A stretch of DNA of 64,000 nt from Minisyncoccia bacterium (GTDB taxonomy: Bacteria > Patescibacteriota > Minisyncoccia > Phycocordibacterales > Phycocordibacteraceae), in contig JBBQUV010000003.1 in the NCBI GenBank assembly GCA_038212075.1, positions 20,036 to 84,035 on the forward strand. The letters run 5' to 3'. The notes under the pieces are model-generated. The model ran no database searches. It was not told the origin of the DNA and worked only from the letters and a program-made list of their open reading frames with translations. Position numbers and translations under genes: made by a program. Of this stretch, positions 1,297 through 63,212 are shown one piece after another. Position 1 is the first letter of the stretch. Every line of letters starts with the position of its first letter.

Positions 1297-1325
1297 TTGA
1301 CAGCCCTTCCTGCGGGGCGTATCTT
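1297..1325 (+). promoter_or_regulatory. Sigma70-like promoter: TTGACA -35, 17-bp spacer, TATCTT -10
   Basis: ttgaca (1297-1302) and tatctt (1320-1325) with 17-nt spacing, upstream of the 23S gene. Confidence 0.45.
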
Positions 1326-5988: not shown

Positions 5989-5994
5989 TATACT
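5989..5994 (+). promoter_or_regulatory. -10 hexamer TATACT, 7 nt before the ATG at 6001 (leaderless configuration)
   Basis: tatact aaaact ATG. Confidence 0.4.
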
Positions 5995-6000
5995 AAAACT

Positions 6001-6756
6001 ATGTGGGCATCACGCAGACAATTCATTATTGTTTCCATTGTGGTGGGGGTAATTGTTGCCGTCGTTGCCGTAACACTCGTGTCTGTTTTCTATAAGGCGC
6101 CGTCGTGCACCGACACCAAACAGAATCAGGGCGAAACAGGTGTTGACTGTGGCGGCCCGTGCTCGCACTTGTGTACTGTTGCGGTAGCGCCACCATCCGT
6201 GCGTTTCGTGCGACAGCTCACACCCATACAGGGGCGCACCGACGTGATTGCCTATATTGATAACACCAATACAAGTGCGGCCATGAAGGGTGCTCGGTTT
6301 ACGGTAACGTTGTACGGGTCGGATAATATTGTGCTCGCGAAGAAAACTGAAACGATTGATTTGCCGCCGAAATCAACCGTGCCGGTGTTTATTCCCAATT
6401 TCTATACCGGCTTTCAAACAGCGGCGCGTGCGTTTCTGGTTTTCGATGAAACATCTTTTAATTGGTACCGCTACACCGATGACCGTCCAGTGCTTTCTTC
6501 TAAAAACGCCGTGCTTTCACAGGGCGACGCCCCAAGACTTTCTGCAAATATATACAATCCAACAGCGTACACGCTGTACCGCGTGCCGGTAATAGCAACC
6601 GTGTTTGATAGTCAAAATAATGCCATTGCCGCTTCGGCAACACTTTTGCTTACTATCCCCCCTATGGGAACCGCACCTGCGATATTCACATGGAATAGTC
6701 CGTTTCCAACATCTGCCGCCAAAGAAGATGTGGTCCCGCTTGTGCCGCTTCCATGA
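6001..6756 (+). CDS. Hypothetical membrane-anchored/secreted protein (N-terminal TM, Cys cluster CTDTK...CGGPCSHLC)
   Basis: ATG at 6001 preferred over the upstream GTG of the ORF track. Hydrophobic N-terminus. Confidence 0.55.
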   Translation: MWASRRQFIIVSIVVGVIVAVVAVTLVSVFYKAPSCTDTKQNQGETGVDCGGPCSHLCTVAVAPPSVRFVRQLTPIQGRTDVIAYIDNTNTSAAMKGARFTVTLYGSDNIVLAKKTETIDLPPKSTVPVFIPNFYTGFQTAARAFLVFDETSFNWYRYTDDRPVLSSKNAVLSQGDAPRLSANIYNPTAYTLYRVPVIATVFDSQNNAIAASATLLLTIPPMGTAPAIFTWNSPFPTSAAKEDVVPLVPLP

Positions 6757-9004: not shown

Positions 9005-9061
9005 AATGGCTTACAACCTAGCGAGAGGTGAAGAAGTTATATACTGTATAAGCCTAGCACA

Positions 9062-10426
9062 ATGACTATCGGTAGCCGCAGAGCCTCGGCGTTTTTGTTT
9101 ATGGGAGACATTGCCGTCTTCGCTTTTTCGCTGTGGCTCACCCTTTTCCTTAGGTATAGGCACCTACCATCACGGGATCTGCTCCTGTCTCACGCTGGCC
9201 CGTTCGCATTTCTGTTCATTGTATGGCTCCTCGTATTTTTTATGGGTGGGTTATATGAAAAACGGGCAATCTTTTTCAAACGTGACCTTTCCGGACGGAT
9301 TATTCGTACGCAAATTGTAAATATTATTCTTGCAGCGCTATTTTTCTTTTTCGTGCCCGCGCTTGGTATCACGCCAAAAACAAATCTTTTTATCTATCTC
9401 GTTGTGTCGCTTGTCCTAATTTTGTTTTGGCGCCTTGTAGTGTTTCCAAAATTTGCCGAGCGACGCACTCGTATTGAAGCCATCATTATTGGCGTGGGGA
9501 AGGAAGAGGAAGAACTCAAAAACGAACTCAACAGCAATATGCGTTATGCAATACGGTGTCGCGCGTCCGTTGACCCACGTGCGACAACGCCGCAATCGTT
9601 CAGCGCTTTTTTGGATGAACACAAAGGACAGGAGGTGAATCTACTTATTGTTGACACACGCGATTCTTCGGTCGCGGCGCTCATTCCAGAAATGTACCGA
9701 CGCTCGTTTGAAGAGAGCTCCTATCACATTGTTGATTTACTCGCCCTCTACGAAGAAGTGTTTGATCGTATTCCGCTCACACGCGTCAACTACGAATGGT
9801 TCTTTCGATACGCAACACGCCGTGCATCGGGGTTTTATCTTTTTGTAAAACGTATCATCGACATTGTTGGCGGGATCCTGATGGCCGTCATTACAGTCAT
9901 TGCGACTCCTTTTGTATGGCTCGCACTTCGTATTGAAGGCAAGGGCCCACTTTTTATTGCCCAAGAACGTCTTGGGGAACGGGTGACCACCATGCACGCA
10001 TACAAGTTTCGTACGATGGAACAAAATGACACCGGAACGTGGAGCGGGGAAGGCACCAATCGCATTACGCGTGTTGGCGCATTTTTGCGCCGCACCTCGC
10101 TCGATGAATTTCCGCAGTGTATCAACGTGCTTCGGGGGGAGCTTTCGCTTATAGGGCCACGCAACGACATTGTGGGTCTCGGAAAACGACTTGAAGAGGC
10201 ACTTCCGTACTACCGCGTTCGCTATATTGTGAAGCCGGGTATCACGGGCTGGGCGCAGGTAAATCAGCAATATGAACAAGGACATATTAGTCCGCAATCT
10301 ATCGAGGAAACAAAGATGCGTCTCGCGTATGATTTTTATTATTTGAAGCACCGTTCGTTTATGCTTGATGTAATGATTGCGCTTAAAACCATCAAGCGCA
10401 TGTTTTTCCGTCTTGGCGCCGTATAG
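9062..10426 (+). CDS. Polyprenyl-phosphate sugar phosphotransferase (WbaP/WcaJ-type initiating transferase)
   Basis: N-terminal TM helices plus the C-terminal Bac_transf domain (...LSLIGPRN...KPGITGWAQV...). Confidence 0.85.
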   Translation: MTIGSRRASAFLFMGDIAVFAFSLWLTLFLRYRHLPSRDLLLSHAGPFAFLFIVWLLVFFMGGLYEKRAIFFKRDLSGRIIRTQIVNIILAALFFFFVPALGITPKTNLFIYLVVSLVLILFWRLVVFPKFAERRTRIEAIIIGVGKEEEELKNELNSNMRYAIRCRASVDPRATTPQSFSAFLDEHKGQEVNLLIVDTRDSSVAALIPEMYRRSFEESSYHIVDLLALYEEVFDRIPLTRVNYEWFFRYATRRASGFYLFVKRIIDIVGGILMAVITVIATPFVWLALRIEGKGPLFIAQERLGERVTTMHAYKFRTMEQNDTGTWSGEGTNRITRVGAFLRRTSLDEFPQCINVLRGELSLIGPRNDIVGLGKRLEEALPYYRVRYIVKPGITGWAQVNQQYEQGHISPQSIEETKMRLAYDFYYLKHRSFMLDVMIALKTIKRMFFRLGAV

Positions 10427-11535: not shown

Positions 11536-11541
11536 TACACT
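11536..11541 (+). promoter_or_regulatory. -10 hexamer TACACT, 7 nt before the folD ATG (leaderless configuration)
   Basis: tacact acacgt ATG. Confidence 0.35.
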
Positions 11542-11547
11542 ACACGT

Positions 11548-12351
11548 ATGATTATCGACGGAAAGAAAATTGCAGGAGAAATACTCGCCGCGACGCGGGT
11601 ACGCGTCGCGGCACTTGGCCGTGCTCCGGTTGTTCGCGCCATCACCGTTTCTCCAAACGCGGCAACAGAGTCGTATTTACGTATTAAATCTGCACGCGCA
11701 GAAGATGCAGGCATGCATCTTGAGGTTATTTCACTCCCACATTCAGCAACCACCGAAGACGTCATTCTTGCGCTTGGTGGTGATGCCACCATCGTTCAGC
11801 TCCCACTTCCTCCGTCTATCGACACCACTACCGTTCTCAACTCCATTCCGATTACACAAGACGCTGACGTGCTTTCCCGTGTTGCGCGTGCGCTGTTTGA
11901 ACAGGGTGATAGTGCAATTTTTCCGCCAGTGGTGGCCGCAGTGAAAGAAATTCTTATGCGTGCAAACGTATCTGCAAAAGACAAAAAAGCCGTCGTGATA
12001 GGAAAGGGATGGCTTGTCGGGGAACCGGTTGCCACGTGGCTTACGCAACAAGGAGCAAAGGTAACTACGTTCACGAAAGAATCTGTTGATTTGGCAGGCA
12101 CGTTGCTAGACGCAGATATCATTGTGTCTGGTGCGGGTGTCGGACACCTCATTCAGCCATCAATGATTAAGCAGGGCGTGGTGCTTATTGACGCTGGCAC
12201 GTCTGAATCGGGGGGTGCGCTCGTGGGCGACGCCGACCCTGACTGCGCAAATACCGCTTCCGTGTTTACTCCCGTTCCGGGTGGGGTAGGACCTATCGCG
12301 GTTGCCTGTCTTTTTGCGAACGTAGCAGAGCTTTTGACGAAGGGAAAGTAA
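11548..12351 (+). CDS. folD: Bifunctional methylenetetrahydrofolate dehydrogenase/cyclohydrolase
   Basis: MIIDGKKIA start, FolD-family conservation throughout, 267 aa. Confidence 0.85.
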   Translation: MIIDGKKIAGEILAATRVRVAALGRAPVVRAITVSPNAATESYLRIKSARAEDAGMHLEVISLPHSATTEDVILALGGDATIVQLPLPPSIDTTTVLNSIPITQDADVLSRVARALFEQGDSAIFPPVVAAVKEILMRANVSAKDKKAVVIGKGWLVGEPVATWLTQQGAKVTTFTKESVDLAGTLLDADIIVSGAGVGHLIQPSMIKQGVVLIDAGTSESGGALVGDADPDCANTASVFTPVPGGVGPIAVACLFANVAELLTKGK

Positions 12352-12371
12352 CGGGTATACTTTGACCCATC

Positions 12372-13700
12372 ATGTTGTGGTACCGCATCTCAGCCTTTGG
12401 CGCCCTTGTCCTTGGGGCGCTTCTCCTTTGGTTCGCTGTTGCGACCAATAACCCTGCGTCTCACTACGCAGTGAAACTTGGACTTGATCTTGCAGGCGGC
12501 ACGGAACTTATCTACAAAGCCGACACTGCCGGTATTGCCACCGATAAACAGGGTGCCCTTGAATCGCTTCGTGACGTCATTGATCGCCGTGTGAATCTTT
12601 TTGGTGTTGCTGAACCGCTTGTGCAACTTGAGCACTCAAGTGTTGTTGCGGGACAGCAAGAAGATCGTTTGCTTGTTGAACTTCCCGGAGTTACCGATGT
12701 GAAAGCCGCCGTGGATGCCATTGGAAAAACTCCGGTGCTTGAATTTAAACTCCAGTCGGATAAGGCGGCAGGAACCATTGATGCAAACGGCACCGCAAAT
12801 ATTGAACAGACCTACGTATCCACCGGCCTCACCGGTCAATATTTGAAGAGTGCAGAGCTTCAGTTTGGTCAGGGCTCGCAAAGCGCACTCGCGTCACCAA
12901 CGGTGGTACTTCACTTTACCGACGACGGTGCAAAATTGTTTGAAAAACTCACTGGCGACAATGTGGGGAAGGTGCTCGCTATTTTCCTTGATGGTCAGCC
13001 AATTTCTACACCAGTTATTCAGGAAGCAATTCCAAGTGGCAACGCCACTATTACTGGCCGATTCACTCCGGAAGAAGCGCGTAACTTGGTGCAGAATCTT
13101 AACTTTGGTGCGCTCCCTGTTCCTATTACGCTTGAATCAAGTAACACGGTTGGTGCCACTCTTGGCGGAACAGCGTTCCATGCAGGTCTTATCGCCGCCG
13201 GTGTTGGATTTCTGCTTGTCGCAATGTTTATGATTCTTTGGTATCGCCTTGCGGGACTTATTGCTTCAGTAGCGCTCGTCATTTATCTCCTTATTAACAT
13301 CGCGGCAATTAAGTTTATTCCGATTACCCTCACGGCGTCTGGTATCGCTGGCTTCATTCTTTCCATCGGTATGGCAGTTGATGCAAACGTGCTTATCTTT
13401 GAACGCATTAAAGAAGAACTTCGTGCTGGAAAGAAAACCCGCGAAGCGGTACACATCGGCTTTAGCCGTGCATGGCCTGCTATCCGTGACGGACACCTTA
13501 CGATGCTTATTTCTGCAGTTATCTTGTTCTGGCTCGGCACATCTTTGGTGCAGGGGTTTGCGCTTGTGTTTGCGCTCGGCGTGATTGCCTCGTTGTTCTC
13601 TGCTGTATCCGTTTCTCGCGTCCTTCTGCTTGCCATTCTTCCTGAAGACGGGCAGGGGCTGTGGAGGAAACTTATGAGCTCCGGATTCCATTTCAAATAA
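12372..13700 (+). CDS. secD: Protein translocase subunit SecD
   Basis: Periplasmic domain plus C-terminal 6-TM SecD/SecF domain. Immediately followed by secF. Confidence 0.9.
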   Translation: MLWYRISAFGALVLGALLLWFAVATNNPASHYAVKLGLDLAGGTELIYKADTAGIATDKQGALESLRDVIDRRVNLFGVAEPLVQLEHSSVVAGQQEDRLLVELPGVTDVKAAVDAIGKTPVLEFKLQSDKAAGTIDANGTANIEQTYVSTGLTGQYLKSAELQFGQGSQSALASPTVVLHFTDDGAKLFEKLTGDNVGKVLAIFLDGQPISTPVIQEAIPSGNATITGRFTPEEARNLVQNLNFGALPVPITLESSNTVGATLGGTAFHAGLIAAGVGFLLVAMFMILWYRLAGLIASVALVIYLLINIAAIKFIPITLTASGIAGFILSIGMAVDANVLIFERIKEELRAGKKTREAVHIGFSRAWPAIRDGHLTMLISAVILFWLGTSLVQGFALVFALGVIASLFSAVSVSRVLLLAILPEDGQGLWRKLMSSGFHFK

Positions 13701-16421: not shown

Positions 16422-17106
16422 TTGTTCCTGTAAATGGCTTGCCATCTAAATAATTTGAGAATTCCTTGAGTTTTGCGCCATTAATCACCGCGACTTCAAG
16501 ACCAAGAATTTCCGCTTCTTTTGCGGCGATAGGGTCAAAGGGAGAAGAGAGCCCCGGATTCCATTCGGAAGGAATAAGTTTTCTAAAATCTGCCCACGAT
16601 GTTTTTTCTATTTTTGTAGCATCAGGGTTCGTACGCGGGTCGGCGGTGTAAACGTAATCAATGTTTGAAAGATTGATGAGTTTTTTTGCACCAACTGCTT
16701 TTGCCGCTTCCACCGCCGCCCAATCACTTGAATTGCCGGGACGCACACCACCAGCCAAAAGAATGGAAGCGTTTGAATCAGTACGAAGGGAAGTGTTGTG
16801 GATAACTTCCGGAATATCTGCGTCCGCAAAGGTGGCGCGCAAAAGTTCTGCGTTCAGTCGTGTTGCGGCGATACCAATCCAATCCAAATCGTCCGTTGTT
16901 GTTTTCGCGTTTATTTCTACCGCCGCATCGCGCCAATTGCGCGCCAATTTACCCCCGCCCGTGATGATATAAAAAGAAAAACCTTCTGCTACCTTTTCTA
17001 AAATGAGTGCACGAAAATGCTTCAAAAAAGTGGTGTCAATTTGATCGGGAACGATCAAAGACCCTCCAACAGACACAATTATTCGCTCACGGTTTGATTC
17101 GCTCAT
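16411..17106 (-). CDS. pyrH: Amino-acid-kinase-family protein, most like UMP kinase
   Basis: VGGS...ITGGG, ...ILLAGG..P..SSD.AA...A....A..L...NIDYVYTADP... matches the PyrH layout. Confidence 0.65.
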   Translation of the reverse strand: MSESNRERIIVSVGGSLIVPDQIDTTFLKHFRALILEKVAEGFSFYIITGGGKLARNWRDAAVEINAKTTTDDLDWIGIAATRLNAELLRATFADADIPEVIHNTSLRTDSNASILLAGGVRPGNSSDWAAVEAAKAVGAKKLINLSNIDYVYTADPRTNPDATKIEKTSWADFRKLIPSEWNPGLSSPFDPIAAKEAEILGLEVAVINGAKLKEFSNYLDGKPFTGTIIS

Positions 17107-17180
17107 GAGGCAAAGGCTTGACGGCTCCCTCTATCATACGCCACTCCGGCGCGCCCGCAATAATGACTTATTAAAAAGGT

Positions 17181-18008: not shown

Positions 18009-18035
18009 CTTGACGCCCCTTTTAGGCTCCTATAC
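18009..18035 (+). promoter_or_regulatory. Candidate 16S promoter: TTGACG -35, 15-nt spacer, TATACT -10
   Basis: ttgacg ccccttttaggctcc tatact. The spacer is shorter than optimal. Confidence 0.35.
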
Positions 18036-18183
18036 TATGGGGGAACTGCGTCCTATTGATAGGAAAGCAGGGGAGAGAGTCAAGATGAAATGAGCTCGGG
18101 AGAGCTCATTGGAGATTCTTGCGCCGTTATTTGAAAACTAAATAGTGCAATCACAAACGTGTACAAATAGTAGATGTGTTTTG

Positions 18184-18206: not shown

Positions 18207-19651
<1,445 letters not shown>

Positions 19652-19806
19652 TATCCGAATGGAATCGGTTCTCCCGAAAGGAGGACCAAGTCGAACGTGT
19701 CGCAAGACACGAGGGAGATAGCACTACGTCCCCAAACGTGTGCTCGGTAGCCCCATACGTCAGGGGCGCTGGAGTCGGAGCGCTCAATTGACGCTCTGAA
19801 TACGGC
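19652..19806 (+). other. 155-nt 3' trailer/extension of the 16S transcript enclosed by the processing stem
   Basis: Lies between GGATCA and the 3' stem strand. Contains AGGAGG but no CCTCC. Confidence 0.5.
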
Positions 19807-20885: not shown

Positions 20886-20891
20886 TATACT
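20886..20891 (+). promoter_or_regulatory. -10 hexamer TATACT, 8 nt before the ATG at 20899
   Basis: tatact tcaaact ATG. Confidence 0.35.
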
Positions 20892-20898
20892 TCAAACT

Positions 20899-21438
20899 AT
20901 GAGAGACGCTCTTATTATTTTCTTGCTCTGCATTGTCGCTATCATTATTGGCGGGTGGATGTTTTTCTACGCGCCAGACAACATCGCGGTTTTCCCGCAA
21001 CATAATAAAAGTCCGGTTATTGTAGAAGGGATAACAGAAGATCCGTTACCAAGTTCAGGGGTGGCGTTTACTGAAATAACCTCAGGGTCACTTGCTACAC
21101 AGGTAAGCGCCGCAAAGAATTATGTTATTAGTTCTGCAGATGATTTTGCACCACTTTGGAAACAAATTACTTCTACGCATATTCCTACCGTTGATTTCAA
21201 ACAGTATTCGGTTATTGCGGTATTTGCAGGGGAAAGGCCAACCAGTGGTTATGGCATTGCGATAGACAAAATAACGGACACTCCTGACAAACGCATTGTT
21301 CATATCGTCCTCACTGTTCCCGGGAAAAACTGTGTGACAAACCAAACAGCAACGAGTCCGTATGCTGTGGTGCAGGTGCCCGCAAGCACCCTTATGCCGG
21401 TAAAAGAAATGGTCACACAAACGCACGACTGCGAGTAA
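20899..21438 (+). CDS. Hypothetical membrane-anchored protein
   Basis: ATG at 20899 (MRDALIIFLLCIVAIIIGGW...). The ORF track's upstream TTG start is less likely. Confidence 0.5.
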   Translation: MRDALIIFLLCIVAIIIGGWMFFYAPDNIAVFPQHNKSPVIVEGITEDPLPSSGVAFTEITSGSLATQVSAAKNYVISSADDFAPLWKQITSTHIPTVDFKQYSVIAVFAGERPTSGYGIAIDKITDTPDKRIVHIVLTVPGKNCVTNQTATSPYAVVQVPASTLMPVKEMVTQTHDCE

Positions 21439-21465
21439 TGTTCAGGAAGGCGGTTCTGCGATACG

Positions 21466-22800
21466 ATGCGTCTTATGGACGCATCGTCGCATTTTAGGGG
21501 CAAGCGCATCACCCTTATGGGGTTGGGGCTTCTTGGCCGTGGGATAGGGGATGCTCGCTACCTTGCCGAATGTGGGGCAGAGCTTACCGTTACCGACCTT
21601 AAAACCAAAGAAGAGCTTGCTGACTCACTCAAGGAACTTGAAGCATTTCCAAACATTCACTACACGCTTGGCGGGCACAACGTAGAAGATTTTCAAAACA
21701 AAGATTTAATTGTGAAGGCGGCGAGTGTTCCGCTCAAATCTCCTTTTATTGCTGAAGCAAAAAAGAACGGTATTCCGGTACGCATGAGCGCCGATCTTTT
21801 TGCAGAATATGCTGGAGTTTCTGTGGTTGGTGTTACGGGAACGCGCGGGAAAACAACCACGGCCTTTATGATTGTGGAAATCATGAAGGCCGCAGGGATG
21901 AAGGTGCTTCTTGGCGGAAATGTTCGTGGTATCTCAACGCTCGCGCTTTTGAATGACGTGCACGGCGACGAAGTCGCCGTGCTGGAGCTTGATTCATGGC
22001 AACTGCAGGGTTTTGGTGAAGCGCATCTTTCACCAAGCATCGCAGTGTTCACAACATTTTTTTCTGACCATCTTAATTACTATAAAGACGACCTTGCGGC
22101 CTACCTTACTGATAAAGCAAACATTTTCTTTTACCAGCAAGAAGGGGATACGCTCGTGCTTGGGAGTCAGTGTGCACCCATCATCATAGAGAAATTTGGT
22201 GAAGCAATAGAGTCAGATATTGTCATTGCTGACGACACCAAACTTCCTGCAGACTGGAAACTGTCTATCCCTGGAATTCATAACCGATACAACGCAGGGC
22301 TCGCACTCGCTACCGCTCGCACGCTCGATATTTCGGACGAGGTAAGTAAAAAGGCCCTTGAGTCATTTGCTGGCGTAGCAGGACGACTTGAGTTTGTCCG
22401 AGAAATAAACGGTGTGAAATTTTATAACGACACTACCGCAACAACCCCAGAGGCTACCCTTGCGGCACTGCGGGCCGTTGGGACCGCTAACCATCCAAAT
22501 ATCGTGCTTATTATGGGCGGCGCGGATAAAGGACTTGGTATGGATGGTTTGTTGCACGAGCTTTCTACCTACGTGAAGCATATGTTTTTCATTAGTGGCA
22601 CAGGTACCGACCGTATCCGGGCGAAACTTCCGGCAGTTGAAATCTATTCTAGTTTAGAGAAAGCCGTTGCAATAGCGCAGGCAACAGCGTCTTCTGGAGA
22701 TGTTGTGCTTTTTTCGCCTGCGTTTTCGTCATTCGGAATGTTTAAGAATGAGTATGATAGGGGAGATCAATTTACTAAAATCGTTACGAATCTTGTATGA
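21466..22800 (+). CDS. murD: UDP-N-acetylmuramoylalanine--D-glutamate ligase
   Basis: Mur ligase central domain GVTGTRGKTTT, MurD-like N-terminal Rossmann domain, 444 aa. Confidence 0.85.
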   Translation: MRLMDASSHFRGKRITLMGLGLLGRGIGDARYLAECGAELTVTDLKTKEELADSLKELEAFPNIHYTLGGHNVEDFQNKDLIVKAASVPLKSPFIAEAKKNGIPVRMSADLFAEYAGVSVVGVTGTRGKTTTAFMIVEIMKAAGMKVLLGGNVRGISTLALLNDVHGDEVAVLELDSWQLQGFGEAHLSPSIAVFTTFFSDHLNYYKDDLAAYLTDKANIFFYQQEGDTLVLGSQCAPIIIEKFGEAIESDIVIADDTKLPADWKLSIPGIHNRYNAGLALATARTLDISDEVSKKALESFAGVAGRLEFVREINGVKFYNDTTATTPEATLAALRAVGTANHPNIVLIMGGADKGLGMDGLLHELSTYVKHMFFISGTGTDRIRAKLPAVEIYSSLEKAVAIAQATASSGDVVLFSPAFSSFGMFKNEYDRGDQFTKIVTNLV

Positions 22801-26588: not shown

Positions 26589-26594
26589 TATACT
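26589..26594 (+). promoter_or_regulatory. -10 hexamer TATACT, 7 nt before the ATG at 26601 (leaderless configuration)
   Basis: tatact gcgggt ATG. Confidence 0.4.
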
Positions 26595-26600
26595 GCGGGT

Positions 26601-26825
26601 ATGTCAAAAGAAGGAACACTCATTACGCTCGGTGTCCTTGTCGCTATCTCTCCTTTCCTTGGACTCCCGCTTTCCTGGCTTTCGTTCTTTCTTCCCGTTA
26701 TGGGCACCATCACGCTTTTCATCGGATACCTGATTCGCCGTGATCATGTCGCATCTCACACGCGCTTGCAGACAGTGCAAGACACTCCTTCATTTGATAC
26801 TTCTGCACCGTCGCCAATTGCATAG
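26601..26825 (+). CDS. Small membrane protein (2 TM)
   Basis: MSKEGTLITLGVLVAISPFLGLPLSWLSFFLPVMGTITLFIGYLI... Confidence 0.5.
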   Translation: MSKEGTLITLGVLVAISPFLGLPLSWLSFFLPVMGTITLFIGYLIRRDHVASHTRLQTVQDTPSFDTSAPSPIA

Positions 26826-26876
26826 GGAATCGCTAGGTGTATAGTGCGCCTGTGGCTAGATTTCATGGAGGAAATC

Positions 26877-27198: not shown

Positions 27199-27204
27199 TA
27201 TAAT
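27199..27204 (+). promoter_or_regulatory. -10 hexamer TATAAT, 7 nt before the ATG at 27211 (leaderless configuration)
   Basis: tataat tgagcg ATG. Confidence 0.45.
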
Positions 27205-27210
27205 TGAGCG

Positions 27211-29040
27211 ATGGATAACCCCGAGCGGGTAACGTACTTTGCGGCGACCGATGCGCGTGGTAAGCGTATACCGTTTGGTATTAAGCAGAAGGATCGCTCG
27301 CGTCATATGTATGTGATTGGGAAGACTGGTATGGGTAAATCAACCCTGCTTGAAAACATGGCGATTCAAGATATCAGAAATGGAGAAGGTATTGCATTTA
27401 TTGATCCGCACGGTGGCACCGCCGACAAGCTGTTGGAATACATTCCAGAACATCGCGTAAAAGACGTGGTGCACTTTGCGCCATTTGATATGGATAACCC
27501 TATCGCGTTTAACGTGATGGAGGATGTGGGCTACGACAAGCGTCACCTTGTGGTGTCGGGACTTATGGCGACGTTTAAGAAGATTTGGATTGATGCGTGG
27601 TCGGCGCGTATGGAATACATTTTGACGAACACACTTCTCGCCCTTCTTGAATACCCGGGCGCAACGCTCCTTGGCGTGAACCGAATGTATACGGACAAAA
27701 ACTATCGCAAGGTGGTTGTAGAAAATATTAAAGACCCTGTGGTGAAAGACTTTTGGACAAAAGAATTTGCCACGTACACCGATCGTTATACCCAAGAAGC
27801 GACGCCCGCCATTCAAAACAAAATCGGGCAATTCACTGGTAACCCACTCATTCGCAACATAATTGGGCAACCGAAGTCGTCCTTTGATATTCGTAAAATG
27901 ATGGACGAGAAGAAGATTCTCATCATAAACCTTTCAAAGGGAAGAGTGGGCGACACCAACACCCAACTCTTGGGCTCAATGCTCACCACGCGCATTTTTC
28001 TTGCCGCCATGAGTCGTGCTGATTTGTCTGCGGCGCAGATAAATCAACACCCAAACTTCTACTTTTACGTAGACGAATTTCAAAACTTTGCGAACGAAAC
28101 GTTTGCAGAAATTTTGTCTGAAGCGCGAAAATATAAACTGAATCTCATCATTGCACACCAATACATTGAGCAAATGGAAGAAGAAGTGCGTGATGCTGTG
28201 TTCGGAAACGTAGGCACCACCGTGTGTTTTCGTGTGGGACCGTTTGATGCTGAAGTGCTTGAAACAGTCTTTATGCCCGAATTTACGAAAGAAGATTTAG
28301 CAAACCTTGGGCTACGACAGATTTACCTTTCTCTGATGATTGACGGCGTTGGTTCGCGGCCGTTTTCTGCGGTTACGATTCCGCCGATTGAACCACCACC
28401 GCAGATATTTAAAGATCAAGTTGTTACTTTTTCACGCTCACAGTTCGGTACAGAGCGCCAAGGCATTGAAGACGCTATTGCCGCAGAGCTTGCGCCACCA
28501 GCAGGCGCACCACCGGCGGAAGAACCAAAACCAAAGAAACCAAGCTACGGTACTCGTCCTCGTGCGGAAGTATCTGAACCTCCGCGGCCACGTCCGCGAC
28601 CAAGCCTTCCTATTGCACCGGCTGAAATGTCGCTTCCCGCACATGCATCGCCTTCGCAACAGCCACGTCCACCGCGTGTGCAGGAAGTGCGTCCTGCGCC
28701 CGTCGCCCAAGGAAAGAGTGCAGAAGATTTGCGCGCCATTTTGAGAAAGATGACCGAGAAGACAAGTAAGGAGCGCGAATCAAAAAGTGCTGAACGGCAA
28801 GGTGCACTTAAAGAAACCGTTGCCACGGTTGTACAAAAACCGGCTCCAGTGCAGTCTGTGCCGCAAAAACAATCCACTCCACTCCCAGTGCCACCCCCTC
28901 CTGTACAACCACCACAACCCCAGAACCAACCACCAGCTCCATCTGCACCCGCGCCAACTCAGCCCATGCCAGTAAAAGCACGTCCTGCATTTGAAGTGGC
29001 CGAAGAAGATCTTAAAAAGATTTTCAAAGAGGGACTTTGA
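27211..29040 (+). CDS. TraG/VirD4/TraD-like type IV coupling-protein-family P-loop ATPase with proline-rich low-complexity C-terminal tail
   Basis: Walker A YVIGKTGMGKST, IDPHGG, Walker B region FYFYVDEFQNF, ...IIAHQY. C-terminal 200 aa rich in P/Q/A (PRPRPRP, PPPPVQPPQPQNQPPAPSAPAPTQP). Confidence 0.55.
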   Translation: MDNPERVTYFAATDARGKRIPFGIKQKDRSRHMYVIGKTGMGKSTLLENMAIQDIRNGEGIAFIDPHGGTADKLLEYIPEHRVKDVVHFAPFDMDNPIAFNVMEDVGYDKRHLVVSGLMATFKKIWIDAWSARMEYILTNTLLALLEYPGATLLGVNRMYTDKNYRKVVVENIKDPVVKDFWTKEFATYTDRYTQEATPAIQNKIGQFTGNPLIRNIIGQPKSSFDIRKMMDEKKILIINLSKGRVGDTNTQLLGSMLTTRIFLAAMSRADLSAAQINQHPNFYFYVDEFQNFANETFAEILSEARKYKLNLIIAHQYIEQMEEEVRDAVFGNVGTTVCFRVGPFDAEVLETVFMPEFTKEDLANLGLRQIYLSLMIDGVGSRPFSAVTIPPIEPPPQIFKDQVVTFSRSQFGTERQGIEDAIAAELAPPAGAPPAEEPKPKKPSYGTRPRAEVSEPPRPRPRPSLPIAPAEMSLPAHASPSQQPRPPRVQEVRPAPVAQGKSAEDLRAILRKMTEKTSKERESKSAERQGALKETVATVVQKPAPVQSVPQKQSTPLPVPPPPVQPPQPQNQPPAPSAPAPTQPMPVKARPAFEVAEEDLKKIFKEGL

Positions 29041-29206
29041 AACTTTTTTGCTGAAAGGTGAGTAGTAATACGTGTACTGATACACCGTAACCATACGTGG
29101 CATATGCAAAGAAAGCACTATGCCCGCACGCCGAAGCCATAGTGCCGGGGCGTGCGGGCGCTATGCTTTTCAGGCGCCGAGTATACTGGTACTGTCCACC
29201 TATTCC

Positions 29207-30658
29207 ATGGCTCAAAAACTCATTCTTGTTACCGGAGGTGCCGGGTTTATCGGCTCGCATCTGTGTAAACGACTCCACGAAAATGGCTATACGGTCATTT
29301 CTTTAGACAATCACTTTGCGGGTAGCAAAGAGAACGAAACACTGCCCATTGAATACAGGGAAGGACACACGAAAGACATTGCAGTACTGGTGCCTGAAAA
29401 ACCAGATATTATTTTTCATCTGGGAGAATATTCTCGCGTTGAACAAAGTTTGCTTGAGCCGGAAGTGGTACATGATTTGAATGTTGTCGGTACGGCCGCG
29501 GTTTTGGATTTCTGGAAAAAGAATGGCGGAAAATTGGTGTACGCAGGTTCTTCTACAAAATTCGGCGATGGCGGGCTGGCGCGTAGCGCCACGCCGTACG
29601 CGGCGTCAAAAGCGGATAATACGGAGAAAGTAAAAAAGATGGGCGATGAGACTGGTCTTCCCTATGCGATTACCTATTTTTACAACGTATTTGGAGAAGG
29701 GGAGCGTGCGGGCGCGTACGGCACCGTGATTGAAATATTTAAGCAAATGTATGTGCGCGGTACGCCGATAACAGTGACTGCACCAGGTACCCAAACGCGT
29801 AACTTTACGCACGTGGATGACATTGTGAACGGATTGATGCTTGTCGCAGAAAAGGGGCAGGGTGATGAGTACGGACTAGGGAATGAAAAGTTTTTCTCAA
29901 TGCTTGATGTTGCGCGTCTATTTGGAACAGACATTCTTATGCTTCCGGAACGTGCGGGCAACCGCATGGGCTCAGGGCTTGATACCACAAAAGCACGAGT
30001 GCTCGGCTGGGAAGCCGAGCACCGTCTTGAAGATTACTTACAAGAATTTTTGAACGAACATAAGCGCGGCGCAGTGCTCGACGCACGGGTGCTTGTATTC
30101 TCTACCACATTTCATCCTATTTCAGGTCCTGCGGAAGAAGCCCTTGTGGCACTCATGCGGGCAATGCCGAACGTGCAGTTTGATATTGTGACCACCCACT
30201 TCACACGCGATGCAAAAACTATTGCATCGCCGGCAAAAAATGCCACAGTGTACCGCGTTGGAAACGGCACGTCGTTTGATAAATACCTGCTCCCCTTTCT
30301 TGGATTTTTTATGGCACGCACACTTGCAAAGAAACACACGTATCTGTTTGCGTGGTCTATCTTTGCAAGTTATGCCGCGCTTGCGGCAATCCTATTAAAA
30401 CGCACAACGGGTATGCCGCTTCTTATTACATTGGCCGATCAAGATATTTCACAGGTGAAGTCGTGGAAGCGTTGGTTTCTTCACACAGCGCTGTCAGATG
30501 CTGACCAAGTGTACGGTATGGAGTCAAAAGACGAACGGAAAGCGGCACGGCTGGTAGGCAAACAAACACTCCGTCACTCCATGGGTGACGGTGACGCCTT
30601 CGCCAACCAAATACGCTTTGCCTACGCCTCTATTTTGAGGCACACTCCTGGTATATGA
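29207..30658 (+). CDS. Fusion protein: N-terminal NAD-dependent sugar epimerase/dehydratase (SDR) plus C-terminal GT4-type glycosyltransferase N-domain-like region
   Basis: ATG at 29207. LILVTGGAGFIGSHL Rossmann motif, then a separate roughly 180-aa domain resembling GT-B N-terminal halves. Confidence 0.6.
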   Translation: MAQKLILVTGGAGFIGSHLCKRLHENGYTVISLDNHFAGSKENETLPIEYREGHTKDIAVLVPEKPDIIFHLGEYSRVEQSLLEPEVVHDLNVVGTAAVLDFWKKNGGKLVYAGSSTKFGDGGLARSATPYAASKADNTEKVKKMGDETGLPYAITYFYNVFGEGERAGAYGTVIEIFKQMYVRGTPITVTAPGTQTRNFTHVDDIVNGLMLVAEKGQGDEYGLGNEKFFSMLDVARLFGTDILMLPERAGNRMGSGLDTTKARVLGWEAEHRLEDYLQEFLNEHKRGAVLDARVLVFSTTFHPISGPAEEALVALMRAMPNVQFDIVTTHFTRDAKTIASPAKNATVYRVGNGTSFDKYLLPFLGFFMARTLAKKHTYLFAWSIFASYAALAAILLKRTTGMPLLITLADQDISQVKSWKRWFLHTALSDADQVYGMESKDERKAARLVGKQTLRHSMGDGDAFANQIRFAYASILRHTPGI

Positions 30659-37460: not shown

Positions 37461-37639
37461 TATTTTAGTTCTAAAATATTTGTAACCTTACAAAAGCCTA
37501 GAGGGGACAAAAGGAGAGTACTTTGGCAGATTATGTGACTGAAGCGCTCAAAGCGCTTACGCCTTAGGAAGAAGAAAATACCCATATCGCAATCATTGCG
37601 TATAACCCTGCGTCAATACACCGGTTTTGAACGATTCGT

Positions 37640-39145
37640 GTGGAGCGGTATGCTAGGGGCATGGAGGGGACTTCACGATTTTCAAATAGCCCGTGGCTTA
37701 CGCGGGTAGTGCCTATTGCCATCCTCATTTTCACGGTAGTCGCGGCGTTTTATCAGTTGTCCGAAAGCCCGTCGGTGTGGTACGACGAAGGTTTTTTTGA
37801 ACAGGCGGCAATGAATCTCGCATCGCACGGTGAGCAGGTGATACAGCTTGTGCCCGGTCACTATCTTTCGTCGTGGTCTGTTTCGGCAGGGTATCCGCTT
37901 ATCGCGCCAATCGCGCTCATGTTCAAGCTGTTTGGGGTGAGTGTGTGGAATGCACGTGCAGTGCCCGCCACATACATTGTGTTATTTGTACTGACCGCAT
38001 ATGTATTTGTTCGCCGTGAATTCGGTGTGCTATCGGCAACAATTGTCGCGCTTTTGCTTGCAACCTTCCCTCTTTTATATGGAAACGGGAAAAGTGTCCT
38101 TGGAGAAGTGCCGGCGCTTTTTTACTTTGCCCTAATGCTTCTTGCACTGCAGTGGCTTGAACAGAGTAGATACAAAAACAATCTTGCGGCATTTCTGACC
38201 GGCATGTTTGCAGGTCTTTCGTTTGCGGCAAAGTTTACGTTTATGCTCGTGCCTGCGGCGCTCGGTGTCGTAGCCCTTATTCGTGGGCGCACGCTCGTGC
38301 GCGAATTACCCATTAAGAACTGGGTACTTGGCGCAAGCGGTTTTTTACTTTCCTTTGGCGTGTGGGTACTGTTGCAATTTCAGCCGGGTGATTCGGTGTC
38401 CACGGTACTCGCGTTTTTTGCAAACCCCTATGACTACGGCACCACCGCGCTTAGCGAAATGATGCTCCAAAATCTTCTCCGTTTTGTCACAGAAATAACG
38501 CCACTCTACATGCTGGTGTTGTTCGCGATATGGACGATTTCGATTGCTCTGCGAAAACGAAAGGACGTATATGTATCGACTGCCGAACTTGTGTCATTTT
38601 CTTTTACGGTGCTCGTGCTTTTGGCATATTTGCGGACGCCTGGATGGTACCGCTATTTCTTCCCGGCGATGGTGGTCTCGCTTCTGTATTTTCCTCAGTC
38701 GCTCAGTGTGGTCTGGAGCGCGTTTCAAACAAACATATCGTTTCTTTCACGCTTGCGATGGTTACCGTATGTAGGGCTTACGCTTTTGATTCTTATACAA
38801 GGATACCAACTTGGTTGGCATTCCTACGTTGCAATGTATTACGGAGATACGCGTACCGCGGCACTCACTGAGTATTTTTCACATGTGCCTCCGACCGAAA
38901 GTATATTTTTGTATAACGTTCCGGAAATTGCTGTCTTTTTGCCTACTACTGATTTTGCACAATATTTGAACCCGCATGTGAATCAAGGGTTTGGTGCAGA
39001 TGAGCTACCGCTTATCGCACACGGTATTCCCACTATGATCATTGTCAACGCGGAAAGTTACGAAATAGAAAAGAATGTGTTCTCTGCCTACAGCGTGAAA
39101 GATCATGTGGTGCATTATGTTGTGCTTGTACGAAAACCAAAATGA
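37640..39145 (+). CDS. GT-C-fold membrane glycosyltransferase (ArnT/PMT/GT39/GT83-like)
   Basis: About 12 TM helices, N-terminal loop WYDEGFF (DE motif), 501 aa. Confidence 0.65.
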   Translation: MERYARGMEGTSRFSNSPWLTRVVPIAILIFTVVAAFYQLSESPSVWYDEGFFEQAAMNLASHGEQVIQLVPGHYLSSWSVSAGYPLIAPIALMFKLFGVSVWNARAVPATYIVLFVLTAYVFVRREFGVLSATIVALLLATFPLLYGNGKSVLGEVPALFYFALMLLALQWLEQSRYKNNLAAFLTGMFAGLSFAAKFTFMLVPAALGVVALIRGRTLVRELPIKNWVLGASGFLLSFGVWVLLQFQPGDSVSTVLAFFANPYDYGTTALSEMMLQNLLRFVTEITPLYMLVLFAIWTISIALRKRKDVYVSTAELVSFSFTVLVLLAYLRTPGWYRYFFPAMVVSLLYFPQSLSVVWSAFQTNISFLSRLRWLPYVGLTLLILIQGYQLGWHSYVAMYYGDTRTAALTEYFSHVPPTESIFLYNVPEIAVFLPTTDFAQYLNPHVNQGFGADELPLIAHGIPTMIIVNAESYEIEKNVFSAYSVKDHVVHYVVLVRKPK

Positions 39146-43484: not shown

Positions 43485-43564
43485 AAGCATGGTGCGCTCC
43501 CGCCCTCTTTCATGGCTTAATCGTGCCAACTTTTTCATGTTTTGGAGGGTTATAAGCTAACGAT

Positions 43565-44353
43565 ATGGATACCATACCCGCCACCGTCGCGGTCCTTACG
43601 CATAACTCTGAAAAGGTTCTGTCAAAGGCTCTCGCTGGTGTTACCGACTTTAGCGAGATCCTCATCTGTGACGGGGAGTCTGTTGATGCAACTCGCGAGA
43701 TTGCGACGTCTTTCCTAGCGCATATCATCGCTCAAGACAAAATGCATCTTTACCCCGACGGTCGTATAAAAGATTTTTCTGGTATTCGGAATCAGACATT
43801 GCAGGCTGCGCACGAAAAGTGGTTTCTTTTTCTTGACGACGACGAGGAACTTTCACCGGAAGGCAAGCAGGCTATCGCGCGTGCCATTTCCACAGAAGTG
43901 CCAACTGCTTTCTGGGTTCCGCGGCTGTACCGATACGAAGGAAAAATCATTACGTGTTCGATTGCCTATCCAAATAAGCAGATGCGGTTCTTTCACAAAG
44001 ATACCGTCCTAAGGTTCGAGAAGCCGGTGCATGAGCGAGTAGTACTCGCGCCGGCCGCGCGTGTTGATGCTCTCGAACATGGAATCATCGTCCCGATACA
44101 AGGAAGCGTGCACGATGCAATGCTGAAGTCCGATCGCTACATCAATGCTGAGCTGTCTCGCTACGCGATTACGTTGAAACTTCTCGTGAAGTATTTCGCA
44201 CATGCACTCAAGATCTCGCTACTCTATCTCTATCGTTTTGTACGCAATCTATTTCGGCACGGCACACGCCTACCGCTTTCGTTTGAATTTCTTCCGCTTT
44301 GGTATCAGTGGCGGCTCGTTAGTCGCGCGACGAAGCAATACTTCCACACATGA
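43565..44353 (+). CDS. GT2 glycosyltransferase
   Basis: VAVLTHNSEKVL...ICDGES...FLDDDE GT-A motifs. Confidence 0.7.
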   Translation: MDTIPATVAVLTHNSEKVLSKALAGVTDFSEILICDGESVDATREIATSFLAHIIAQDKMHLYPDGRIKDFSGIRNQTLQAAHEKWFLFLDDDEELSPEGKQAIARAISTEVPTAFWVPRLYRYEGKIITCSIAYPNKQMRFFHKDTVLRFEKPVHERVVLAPAARVDALEHGIIVPIQGSVHDAMLKSDRYINAELSRYAITLKLLVKYFAHALKISLLYLYRFVRNLFRHGTRLPLSFEFLPLWYQWRLVSRATKQYFHT

Positions 44354-48811: not shown

Positions 48812-48849
48812 CCCTAGCCCCATTCTTATGGTTTTAACCCTTATACCCT

Positions 48850-54519: not shown

Positions 54520-54577
54520 GATGTACCTACTATAACCCGTGCCCAGGCACTCTCGTTTCTGTTTCAGGGGCGAGTGG

Positions 54578-54583
54578 TATACT
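54578..54583 (+). promoter_or_regulatory. -10 hexamer TATACT, 8 nt before the ATG at 54591
   Basis: tatact ccttttc ATG. Confidence 0.35.
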
Positions 54584-54590
54584 CCTTTTC

Positions 54591-58046: not shown

Positions 58047-58119
58047 TTTTTGGCACTCAACGGTAGTCAGTCTAGAGAGCCTGTAGCGAGCCGCCGTGTA
58101 CTGGGGTATAGTAGCGGGA

Positions 58120-60645: not shown

Positions 60646-60694
60646 TAGTCTCAAGAATTTCTAAAAACAGTAAGTGTGATAGGGTGAGGGAACT

Positions 60695-61669: not shown

Positions 61670-61704
61670 TAGTTTTTGTGAGTTGGTGAATAGTATAGGT
61701 ACGG

Positions 61705-63120: not shown

Positions 63121-63206
63121 ATAGGGTTGTTTTTAGCCAAGATGGCAAAGTGCGCCATCTTGGCACAGCGTGTTTATAATCACTTTGATACAAGACAAGA
63201 AGAGCA

Positions 63207-63212
63207 TATACT
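63207..63212 (+). promoter_or_regulatory. -10 hexamer TATACT, 7 nt before the ATG at 63219 (leaderless configuration)
   Basis: tatact accgat ATG. Confidence 0.4.

What the first reader, a model, noticed from the sequence alone, without database searches (positions are those of the whole stretch)
5989..6003. Pervasive leaderless-mRNA architecture: TAnnnT -10 hexamers 7-8 nt upstream of start codons
Many genes have a -10-like hexamer positioned so that transcription would begin at or next to the start codon. These are 6001 (tatact +7), folD 11548 (tacact +7), 26601 (tatact +7), 27211 (tataat +7), 20899 (tatact +8), 54591 (tatact +8) and 63219 (tatact +7). secD 12372 (tatact +11) and 9062 (tatact +17) have very short leaders. 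Together with the near-absence of SD motifs and the missing anti-SD in 16S, this points to leaderless or SD-independent initiation as the default. Operon-internal genes mostly overlap their upstream neighbour by 1-4 nt.
Basis: seen in the sequence. Interest (0 to 1): 0.55.

Follow-up and report, generated by a model that had tools for sequence, protein, structure and literature searches.

The report
Leaderless gene starts in a Parcubacterium
In this candidate-phyla-radiation bacterium, whose 16S rRNA has lost the site that normally docks onto mRNAs, about two thirds of transcription units have a promoter -10 box so close to the ATG that the mRNA should begin at or within 4 nt of its start codon. 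A known way of starting translation therefore seems to be the default in a lineage where I found no report of it.

Summary
All nine cited sites check out. I found six more genes with a TAnnnT hexamer 6-9 nt before the start codon: murD, a PMT_2 glycosyltransferase, a GT2, a flippase, secA, obg and gatB are among the set.

Of 24 transcription-unit-first genes, 11 have a 6-7 nt spacer, 4 have 8-9 nt, 1 has 10 nt, 5 have 16-26 nt and 3 are unresolved. Under a rule that ignores the motif (first ATG in the ORF), 8 of 23 carry the hexamer at -12/-13 (P about 1e-7).

TATACT also follows a canonical TTGACG -35 box at the 16S promoter, so it is this organism's sigma-70 -10 box. SD motifs are at background. 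The 16S tail reads GGAUCAUAUCC instead of GGAUCACCUCC, and no motif complementary to it is enriched. Of 31 operon-internal genes, 17 overlap their neighbour as ATGA.

The organism is a Parcubacterium. Seventeen metagenome loci with the same 16S tail repeat the signal (18 of 55 against 2.7 expected), and orthologous genes keep only the hexamer and the ATG.

Anti-SD loss in Parcubacteria is published; I found no paper linking it to leaderless transcripts. There are no TSS data, so "leaderless" remains an inference.

The parts
5989..6003 (+). TATACT-6nt-ATG. Start of a hypothetical membrane protein (6001-6756), directly after the 5S terminators.
   Evidence: Terminator hairpins at 5898-5921 and 5964-5980 leave only about 16-20 nt before the ATG.
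11536..11550 (+). TACACT-6nt-ATG, folD.
   Evidence: The ATG is the first start candidate of the ORF. Pfam THF_DHG_CYH profile position 1 aligns at residue 3.
20886..20901 (+). TATACT-7nt-ATG, PrcB_C-domain protein.
   Evidence: In 5 orthologous loci only (T)GCTATACT/TTATAAT and the ATG are invariant, with spacers of 7-9 nt. Terminator at 20820-20841.
21462..21477 (+). TACGAT-7nt-ATG, murD. Start revised from 21466 to 21475 (MDASSHF).
   Evidence: Orthologues start at MDV/MDAS, with TAGGAT or TAAGAT 6-10 nt upstream. Spacer table.
26589..26603 (+). TATACT-6nt-ATG, 74-aa membrane protein. Not the first ATG of its ORF.
   Evidence: The N-terminus aligns from residue 1 with L093. An upstream in-frame ATG at 26580 cannot be excluded.
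27199..27213 (+). TATAAT-6nt-ATG, VirD4/TraG-like ATPase (609 aa).
   Evidence: The ATG is the first start candidate. Orthologues have TATACT-7 (L086, 63% GC) and TATAAT-8 (L093), and the N-terminus MENPERVTYF is conserved.
37627..37663 (+). TTGAAC-16-TATGCT-6nt-ATG, PMT_2-type glycosyltransferase.
43553..43567 (+). TAAGCT-6nt-ATG, family 2 glycosyltransferase.
   Evidence: The ATG is the first start candidate.
54578..54593 (+). TATACT-7nt-ATG, Wzy_C/TPR protein. The ORF is open upstream to 54402.
   Evidence: The L001 orthologue starts at the equivalent position, with TATAGT 10 nt upstream.
54517..54534 (-). TATAGT-9nt-GTG, Polysacc_synt flippase, divergent from 54591. It is one of only two proposed non-ATG starts in the gene list.
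   Evidence: Pfam profile position 1 aligns at residue 25, and the next in-frame start is 76 codons downstream.
58107..58122 (+). TATAGT-7nt-ATG, secA.
   Evidence: SecA_DEAD profile position 3 at residue 7. Strong terminator at 58019-58046. About 12 of 20 Parcubacteria secA loci have a -10-like hexamer 7-10 nt before the ATG.
60680..60697 (+). TAGGGT-9nt-ATG, obg. Predicted 2-3 nt leader.
   Evidence: GTP1_OBG profile position 1 at residue 4.
61691..61707 (+). TAGTAT-8nt-ATG, gatB. Predicted 1-2 nt leader.
   Evidence: GatB_N profile position 2 at residue 7.
63185..63221 (+). TTGATA-16-TATACT-6nt-ATG. The gene runs off the end of the window.
12334..12374 (+). TTGACG-16-TATACT-10nt-ATG, secD. 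Predicted leader of about 4 nt.
   Evidence: The L088 orthologue has TACACT-7-ATG.
9040..9064 (+). TATACT-16nt-ATG, Bac_transf sugar transferase. Predicted leader of about 10 nt.
29182..29209 (+). TATACT-19nt-ATG, epimerase. Start revised from 29120 to 29207. Predicted leader of about 13 nt.
   Evidence: Pfam Epimerase profile position 1 aligns at residue 35 of the long ORF..
26840..26867 (+). TATAGT-19nt-ATG, 84-aa protein. Short leader.
48827..48852 (+). TATGGT-17nt-ATG, Polysacc_synt_2 dehydratase. Short leader.
17104..17138 (-). TATGAT-26nt-ATG, amino-acid-kinase (pyrH-like) gene. A leadered exception whose leader is conserved.
   Evidence: L088 has TAGAAT at the same distance, and GGAGCCGTCA is conserved in the leader.
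18010..18036 (+). 16S rRNA promoter: TTGACG-15-TATACT, or TTGACG-17-TACTAT.
   Evidence: It shows that TATACT works as a sigma-70 -10 box here.
1297..1325 (+). 23S rRNA promoter: TTGACA-17-TATCTT.
19646..19656 (+). 16S 3' tail GGATCATATCC. The anti-SD core CCUCC is replaced by UAUCC.
   Evidence: The same tail occurs in 19 metagenome loci.
6753..6756 (+). Example of an ATGA stop/start overlap. There are 17 such junctions among 31 operon-internal genes.

Best explanation
The TAnnnT hexamers (consensus TAtAcT) are the sigma-70 -10 boxes of this Parcubacterium. Many of them sit 6-9 nt upstream of the ATG of the first gene of a transcription unit. RNA polymerase should therefore start at the A of the ATG or 1-3 nt before it, giving mRNAs with no usable 5' UTR.

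The 16S rRNA has no CCUCC and the mRNAs have no SD. Start-site selection must then rest on a ribosome carrying initiator tRNA that recognises a 5'-terminal AUG, as established for leaderless mRNAs in other organisms.

Downstream genes in operons overlap or abut the preceding stop codon, mostly as ATGA. They are most likely initiated by the terminating ribosome restarting in place (termination-reinitiation).

What is shown and what is inferred:
- Shown here: the motif, its spacing, its restriction to unit-first genes, its conservation in relatives, the missing anti-SD and SD, and the overlap pattern.
- Inferred: the position of the transcription start, the 70S/IF2-type leaderless initiation, and the reinitiation.
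For: 1. All cited sites are verified. There is a sharp spacing peak: TAYANT-N6-ATG 11 times and N7 5 times, against about 2 at other spacings. Eight of 23 unit-first genes carry the hexamer under a motif-blind start rule, P = 1.3e-7.
2. With refined starts, 11 of 24 units have a spacer of 6-7 nt, 4 have 8-9 nt and 1 has 10 nt.
3. The same TATACT follows TTGACG at the 16S promoter, and TATCTT follows TTGACA-17 at the 23S promoter.
4. The only k-mers enriched in -20..-1 are -10-like. SD motifs and motifs complementary to the new 16S tail are at or below background.
5. The same pipeline finds a clear SD peak and no TAnnnT peak in non-CPR control loci.
6. In 17 loci with the same 16S tail, 18 of 55 unit-first ORFs have TAnnnT at -12..-14 against 2.7 expected, P = 6e-11.
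7. Orthologous upstream regions keep only the hexamer and the ATG. A -10-like hexamer lies 7-10 nt before the ATG in about 12 of 20 Parcubacteria secA loci.
8. Start codons are confirmed by Pfam N-terminal alignments.
9. Strong terminators lie 20-70 nt upstream of three of these ATGs.
10. Nine of 11 sites have a pyrimidine at -1, giving Y-A-T. That matches the YRY 'start' element reported in PMC12641261.
11. Seventeen of 31 internal junctions are ATGA overlaps.
Against: - No transcription start is mapped for this organism or any Parcubacterium I could find.
- Most of these promoters have no recognisable -35 box. A two-hexamer consensus scan is not enriched over shuffles.
- At least 5 units have predicted 10-20 nt leaders, one of them conserved (pyrH). 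Three have no convincing -10 box near the start (398, 17184, 9004).
- ORF 20006 has an AAGGAG 8 nt before a GTG.
- The sample is one 64-kb window plus about 110 kb from relatives, not a whole genome.
Confidence: 0.75

Rival explanations
1. The transcripts are leadered, made from promoters further upstream or by read-through. The A/T-rich hexamer next to the ATG would then act in translation instead, for example as an unstructured or S1-binding enhancer, or as a non-SD ribosome-binding site like that of Bacteroidetes.
For: Most sites lack a good -35 box. Bacteroidetes-type non-SD signals are known at a similar distance from the start (PMC6028130). Gene 6001 lies just after the rRNA operon and could be read through.
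Against: - The motif is absent from operon-internal genes (3 of 31, not significant), whereas a ribosome-binding site should precede all genes.
- It is the same hexamer as the -10 box of the rRNA promoters.
- It has no complementarity to the 16S tail.
- In other genes it sits 10-26 nt away from the start, which does not suit a fixed-distance ribosome site.
- Strong terminators directly precede several sites.
Confidence: 0.1
2. The hexamers are promoters, but transcription starts a few nt upstream of the ATG at most sites. The mRNAs would then have very short leaders of 2-8 nt rather than being strictly leaderless, and would be recognised by an unknown 5'-end-dependent mechanism.
For: Spacers of 8-10 nt occur in the window (5 units) and are common in relatives (7-10 nt).
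Against: The mode in the window is exactly 6 nt (7 units) and then 7 nt (4 units). With the usual -10-to-start distance, that places +1 on the A. A 5' UTR of 5 nt or less is conventionally counted as leaderless anyway.
Confidence: 0.1
3. The pattern is chance, or an artefact of choosing start codons to fit the motif.
For: Two starts (26601, 54591) were chosen with the motif in view. TAnnnT is a loose pattern.
Against: The gene-agnostic spacing histogram, the motif-blind start rule (P = 1.3e-7), the independent replication in relatives (P = 6e-11), the Pfam-anchored starts and the phylogenetic footprint all argue against it.
Confidence: 0.02

Closest known systems
Leaderless-rich bacteria: Actinobacteria (Mycobacterium, Streptomyces, Corynebacterium) and Deinococcus-Thermus. 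This is GeneMarkS-2 'group C' (PMC6028130; Zheng et al. 2011, PMC3160421).
   Same: A Pribnow-type TAnnnT box lies 6-8 nt from the start codon of first genes in operons. The promoters are dominated by the -10 box, with a weak -35. The fraction of leaderless units is substantial.
   Different: Those organisms keep the CCUCC anti-SD and use SD sites for leadered and internal genes. Here the anti-SD is gone and no SD signal is seen for any gene class. The predicted leaderless share, about 60% of units, is above the 25-50% given for group C. It rests on only 24 units.
Parcubacteria without the anti-SD motif (Tsurumaki et al. 2022, RNA, PMC9297842).
   Same: Same phylum-level group (SecA best matches) and the same loss of CCUCC at the 16S 3' end.
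   Different: That paper reports the loss and remarks that SD helices cannot form. It does not say how initiation works and never mentions leaderless mRNAs.
Haloarchaea such as Haloferax volcanii (PMC3986360).
   Same: Most transcripts are leaderless. The leadered ones mostly lack SD motifs. Overlapping gene pairs are common.
   Different: The promoter is archaeal (a TATA box about 26 nt upstream) and so are the initiation factors. The anti-SD is retained.
Bacteroidetes / Flavobacteriia non-SD initiation (GeneMarkS-2 'group B'), and the insect symbionts and haemotropic mycoplasmas that lack the anti-SD (Lim et al. 2012, PMC3457768).
   Same: Initiation is independent of SD. Some of these lineages have also lost the anti-SD.
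   Different: In group B an A-rich motif precedes both first and internal genes on leadered mRNAs. Here the motif is a -10 box restricted to unit-first genes.
Mammalian mitochondrial translation.
   Same: Leaderless mRNAs and no SD/anti-SD pairing. Tsurumaki et al. also noted a pattern of ribosomal-protein loss similar to CPR.
   Different: It is an organelle system in which mRNAs are made by processing of polycistronic transcripts, not by a promoter at each gene.

Membership tests
Leaderless-mRNA gene-start architecture (bacterial, GeneMarkS-2 group C type) | A -10 (Pribnow) box at a fixed distance of about 6-8 nt upstream of the start codon of first genes in operons | tested here: met
   Spacing peak at 6-7 nt. 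Eleven of 24 units have 6-7 nt and 4 more have 8-9 nt.
Leaderless-mRNA gene-start architecture (bacterial, GeneMarkS-2 group C type) | The motif is a genuine promoter element and not a ribosome-binding site | tested here: met
   The same hexamer follows canonical -35 boxes at the 16S and 23S promoters. It is absent from internal genes. It has no complementarity to the 16S tail.
Leaderless-mRNA gene-start architecture (bacterial, GeneMarkS-2 group C type) | No SD motif upstream of the leaderless genes | tested here: met
   An SD core is found in 6 of 52 genes against 5.7 in random windows. Control loci give 39%.
Leaderless-mRNA gene-start architecture (bacterial, GeneMarkS-2 group C type) | The mapped transcription start coincides with the start codon (5' UTR of about 5 nt or less) | not testable with these tools
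   No transcriptome data are available. The only CPR organism with mapped starts that I found is Nanosynbacter lyticus, a Saccharibacterium.
Leaderless-mRNA gene-start architecture (bacterial, GeneMarkS-2 group C type) | Remaining genes (leadered or internal) use SD-type ribosome-binding sites (dual model of group C) | tested here: not met
   Internal genes show no SD signal. The 16S lacks CCUCC. The window works like group C for first genes but departs from it for the rest.
Anti-SD-less Parcubacteria (Tsurumaki et al. 2022) | The 16S 3' tail lacks the CCUCC(U) motif | tested here: met
   GGATCATATCC at 19646-19656. The Rfam SSU model is matched to its last position.
Anti-SD-less Parcubacteria (Tsurumaki et al. 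2022) | Affiliation with Parcubacteria / Paceibacterota | tested here: met
   The best SecA matches (51-62% identity) are to Paceibacterota, Vogelbacteria, Wildermuthbacteria, Nealsonbacteria and Patescibacteria MAGs. The rRNA genes are unlinked and the 23S carries intron-like inserts.
Anti-SD-less Parcubacteria (Tsurumaki et al. 2022) | Co-occurring loss of ribosomal protein uL1 | not tested
   The ribosomal protein genes are not in this window.
Bacteroidetes-type non-SD ribosome-binding site (group B) | The same upstream motif occurs before both first and internal genes on leadered mRNAs | tested here: not met
   Hexamer at -12/-13 in 8 of 23 first genes against 3 of 31 internal genes.

The most novel reading that the evidence does not exclude
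A whole clade of Parcubacteria, marked by the 16S tail GGAUCAUAUCC, may have given up SD/anti-SD pairing altogether. In this sample its 16S identity to the window ranges from 73 to 93% and its GC content from 35 to 63%. It would run on two SD-free modes only: 5'-terminal AUG recognition on leaderless mRNAs for the first gene of each unit, and termination-reinitiation at overlapping or abutting stop/start junctions for the rest. If so, genome layout would be forced into 'promoter touching the ATG, or gene touching the previous stop'. This would be a free-living bacterial counterpart of the mitochondrial and haloarchaeal situation. It would also give a functional reading of the anti-SD loss reported in 2022.
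Probability: 0.5. Interest if true: 0.65.

Novelty: new member of a known kind. Interest (0 to 1): 0.52.

Why it matters
Leaderless initiation is often regarded as the ancestral way to start translation. In bacteria it has been documented at scale mainly in Actinobacteria and Deinococcus-Thermus, where it coexists with SD sites.

Candidate-phyla-radiation bacteria have pared-down ribosomes, and about half of Parcubacteria lack the anti-SD. How they find start codons has been left open (PMC9297842). This window and 17 related loci give a concrete, testable answer.

There are practical consequences:
- Gene finders tuned to SD sites will misplace starts in these genomes. Here 29120 should be 29207, 21466 should be 21475 and 54402 should be 54591.
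- The -10 box itself can be used as a start-site signal for them.
- Heterologous expression of CPR genes, or cell-free work on CPR ribosomes, should take leaderless templates into account.

Tried and rejected
1. **Source genome.** An exact-protein look-up of two window proteins, meant to obtain more of the source genome, found nothing on record.
2. **Two-hexamer promoter scan.** A sigma-70 consensus scan (-35 plus -10) is not enriched over shuffles. It recovers only secD, 63219 and the 16S promoter. The promoters are therefore dominated by the -10 box, and I did not use this scan as support.
3. **A new SD matching the altered 16S tail.** I tested 4- to 6-mers of ATTCGGATATGATCC. They are at or below background, so this idea is rejected.
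4. **Internal leaderless promoters.** Hexamers at -12 occur before 31875, 48221 and 50967, which is 3 of 31 internal genes (P = 0.055). Not significant, so I make no claim.
5. **Pooled SecA-derived CPR loci.** These give only about 2.5-fold enrichment (21 of 139 against about 8 expected), because the set mixes lineages of unknown 16S status and includes AT-rich genomes. I replaced it with the set selected by 16S tail.
6. **Two loci dropped from that set.** L095 has a eukaryote-type 18S end. L084 has a Firmicutes-type helix 45 and SD-like GGAGG before 2 of its 5 genes. I excluded both.
7. **ORFs inside the 23S insertions.** Pfam found no domain in them.
8. **Literature.** Searches pairing 'leaderless' with Patescibacteria, Parcubacteria, candidate phyla radiation or CPR bacteria found no paper that makes the link. 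The library lacks most subscription journals, so a prior report cannot be ruled out.

Full report
**What the window is.** The window holds a 23S-5S rRNA pair (1560-5883). An unlinked 16S lies 12 kb downstream (18200-19659). The rest is about 55 protein genes, nearly all on the + strand, many of them for cell-envelope glycosylation. SecA is 51-62% identical to proteins of Paceibacterota, Vogelbacteria, Wildermuthbacteria, Nealsonbacteria and other Patescibacteria genomes. The organism is therefore a Parcubacterium of the candidate phyla radiation, with no close relative among the species representatives.

The 16S ends ...GTCGTGGATCATATCCGAAT. The Rfam model is matched to its last position, so the anti-SD core CCUCC is replaced by UAUCC.

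**The observation.** The enrichment does not depend on gene calls:
- TATACT occurs 25 times against 13.3 expected, and 10 of the 17 copies on the + strand lie 19 nt or less upstream of a gene start.
- Counting TAYANT-Nk-ATG over both strands gives 11 at k=6 and 5 at k=7, against about 2 at every other spacing from 0 to 30.

I also fixed gene starts by a rule that ignores the motif (the first ATG of the ORF). Eight of 23 genes with an upstream gap of 20 nt or more then carry TAnnnT at -12 or -13. The rate for all 1,966 ATGs in the window is 2.8%, so P = 1.3e-7. Operon-internal genes give 3 of 31, which is not significant.

**Refining the starts.** Pfam N-terminal alignments confirm the ATG next to the hexamer for folD, secA, obg and gatB. 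They move the epimerase start from 29120 to 29207. Orthologues confirm the PrcB_C protein and the VirD4-like ATPase from residue 1, and move murD to 21475.

The resulting table has 24 unit-first genes:

| Spacer from hexamer to start codon | Units | Genes |
|---|---|---|
| 6 nt | 7 | 6001, folD, 26601, 27211, 37661, 43565, 63219 |
| 7 nt | 4 | 20899, murD, 54591, secA |
| 8-9 nt | 4 | gatB, obg, the flippase on the minus strand, and one further hexamer adjoining TATACT at secD |
| 10 nt | 1 | secD, counted from its TATACT |
| 16-26 nt | 5 | 9062, 26865, 29207, 48850, pyrH |
| Unresolved | 3 | 398, 17184, 20006 |

Gene 9004 has no convincing -10 box near its start. About 15-16 of 24 units are thus predicted to have a 5' UTR of 4 nt or less.

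**Why the hexamer is a promoter.**
- TATACT follows TTGACG at the 16S promoter (18010-18036), and TATCTT follows TTGACA-17 at the 23S promoter (1297-1325).
- Three protein-gene sites also have good -35 boxes: secD, 37661 and 63219. Most do not, and a two-hexamer scan is not enriched. The promoters are dominated by the -10 box, as in mycobacteria.
- Strong terminators lie just upstream of 6001, 20899 and secA. That leaves room only for a promoter touching the ATG.
- Nine of the 11 sites with 6-7 nt spacers have a pyrimidine at -1, giving Y-A-T. This matches the YRY 'start' element described for bacterial transcription start selection (PMC12641261).

**SD-independence.** The only k-mers enriched in -20..-1 are -10-like. 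SD cores occur in 6 of 52 genes against 5.7 in random windows. Motifs complementary to the new 16S tail are at or below background.

The same crude pipeline, applied to about 50 non-CPR loci fetched with SecA, gives a textbook SD peak (39% of genes) and no TAnnnT peak (3.5%). The absence of SD in the window is therefore not a failure of the method.

**Internal genes.** Of 31 internal junctions, 17 are ATGA overlaps, 1 is TGATG, 4 are overlaps of 8-17 nt, and 9 are gaps of 0-9 nt. Every gene in the window either touches the previous gene or has its own hexamer close by, apart from the few unresolved cases. That is the layout expected if initiation can happen only at a 5' end or by reinitiation.

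**Relatives.** A metagenome scan for the 16S 3' end (GTCGTAACAAGG...GGATCATATCC) returned 19 loci. Their 16S is 73-93% identical to the window's and their GC content runs from 35 to 63%.

Two loci are not relatives and I excluded them. L095 has a eukaryote-type end, and L084 has a Firmicutes-type helix 45. In the other 17, 18 of 55 unit-first ORFs have TAnnnT at -12..-14 against 2.7 expected (P = 6e-11). Internal ORFs give 3 of 31, and SD cores occur in 13% of genes.

Synteny allows direct comparison of orthologous upstream regions:
- Upstream of the PrcB_C gene, only (T)GCTATACT/TTATAAT and the ATG are invariant across six genomes, with spacers of 7-9 nt.
- The ATPase gene keeps TATAAT or TATACT at 6-8 nt, even in a 63%-GC genome.
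- secD in L088 has TACACT-7.
- About 12 of 20 Parcubacteria secA loci have a -10-like hexamer, often with TGn, 7-10 nt before the ATG.

**Mechanism.** The best reading is that RNA polymerase starts at or next to the A of the ATG. These mRNAs would then be translated by direct recognition of a 5'-terminal AUG by a ribosome carrying initiator tRNA. That route is established in other organisms (reviewed in PMC9031893) and needs no anti-SD. Internal genes would be served by termination-reinitiation. The transcription start, the mode of ribosome loading and the reinitiation are all inferred, not shown.

The leadered exceptions remain unexplained in a genome without an anti-SD. They include a conserved leader of about 20 nt before the pyrH-like gene and ORF 20006, which has AAGGAG before a GTG.

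**What is known.** The architecture is that of GeneMarkS-2 'group C' (a Pribnow box about 10 nt from the start). That group is described for Actinobacteria and Deinococcus-Thermus, which keep SD sites for other genes (PMC6028130).

Loss of the anti-SD in about half of Parcubacteria is published, with no account of how initiation proceeds and no mention of leaderless mRNAs (PMC9297842). Lim et al. 2012 suggested 'leaderless or unknown mechanisms' for other bacteria that lack the anti-SD.

Searches pairing 'leaderless' with Patescibacteria, Parcubacteria or CPR found no paper that makes the connection. The searched library is incomplete.

**Verdict.** It is a new member of a known kind, of moderate interest.

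Noticed in passing
window 20620-20815: A complete tRNA-Ile(GAT) (20670-20743) is nested between a 5' fragment and a 3' fragment of a second tRNA-Ile. The acceptor halves of the two fragments pair with each other, and a 10-bp inverted repeat (GAAGCTACTG / CAGTAGCTTC) brackets the inner gene. ARAGORN reports two overlapping tRNAs. The same arrangement is present in L086 (16S 88% identical, 63% GC), but four other relatives have a single tRNA-Ile. It could be a disrupted or duplicated gene or an unusual insertion. Unexplained.
   Followed up: partly
window 1560-5645 (inserts at about 4174-4642 and 5050-5341): The 23S gene spans 4,086 nt against a 2,925-position model. Two sub-threshold matches to group I introns (E = 9e-5 and 2e-6) lie inside it. 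ORFs within the 23S have no Pfam domain. rRNA introns are known in CPR bacteria.
   Followed up: partly
window 1560-5883 and 18200-19659: The rRNA genes are unlinked. The 23S-5S pair and the 16S are 12 kb apart, each with its own canonical sigma-70 promoter, and protein genes (folD, secDF and others) lie between them.
   Followed up: partly
window 19889-20350: A Cys-rich 114-aa ORF (20006-20350, GTG start, no Pfam hit) is preceded by AAGGAG 8 nt upstream, by a second AAGGAG about 45 nt upstream, and by TTGACT-17-TATTAT (19889-19917). This long-leader, SD-like arrangement is out of keeping with a genome that lacks the anti-SD. It may be foreign DNA or not a real gene.
   Followed up: no
window 17104-17138 (minus strand); L088 about 4296-4340: The pyrH-like kinase gene has a predicted leader of about 20 nt. 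Its core GGAGCCGTCA is conserved in L088, which suggests a regulatory or ribosome-loading element on one of the few leadered mRNAs.
   Followed up: no
window 19660-19700: Directly after the 16S tail there is a conserved RAAUGGAAUYG followed by a hairpin (GGTTCTCCCGAAAGGAGGACC in the window). The closest relatives have it with compensating sequence changes. It is probably a 3' processing stem. It contains CUCC only in some genomes.
   Followed up: no
L084 (contig SCPP01000037.1, 1.39 Mb) and L095: The tail GGATCATATCC also occurs outside this clade. L084 has a Firmicutes-type helix 45 followed by CATATCCTTTCT, yet GGAGG-like motifs precede 2 of its 5 genes. L095 has a eukaryote-type 18S end.
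   Followed up: no
window 50052-50066 and 23172-23186: TATACT-6-ATG (50064) and TATACT-6-GTG (23184) lie in frame inside the genes 49851-50957 and 22797-23624. They may be internal leaderless promoters producing N-terminally shortened proteins, or chance.
   Followed up: no
window 29100-57800: A gene cluster of nearly 30 kb for surface polysaccharide or glycan synthesis fills almost half the window. It includes several GT4 and GT2 transferases, epimerases/dehydratases, a flippase, a Wzy_C ligase with TPR repeats, a PMT_2 transferase, a GMC oxidoreductase and a methyltransferase.
   Followed up: no
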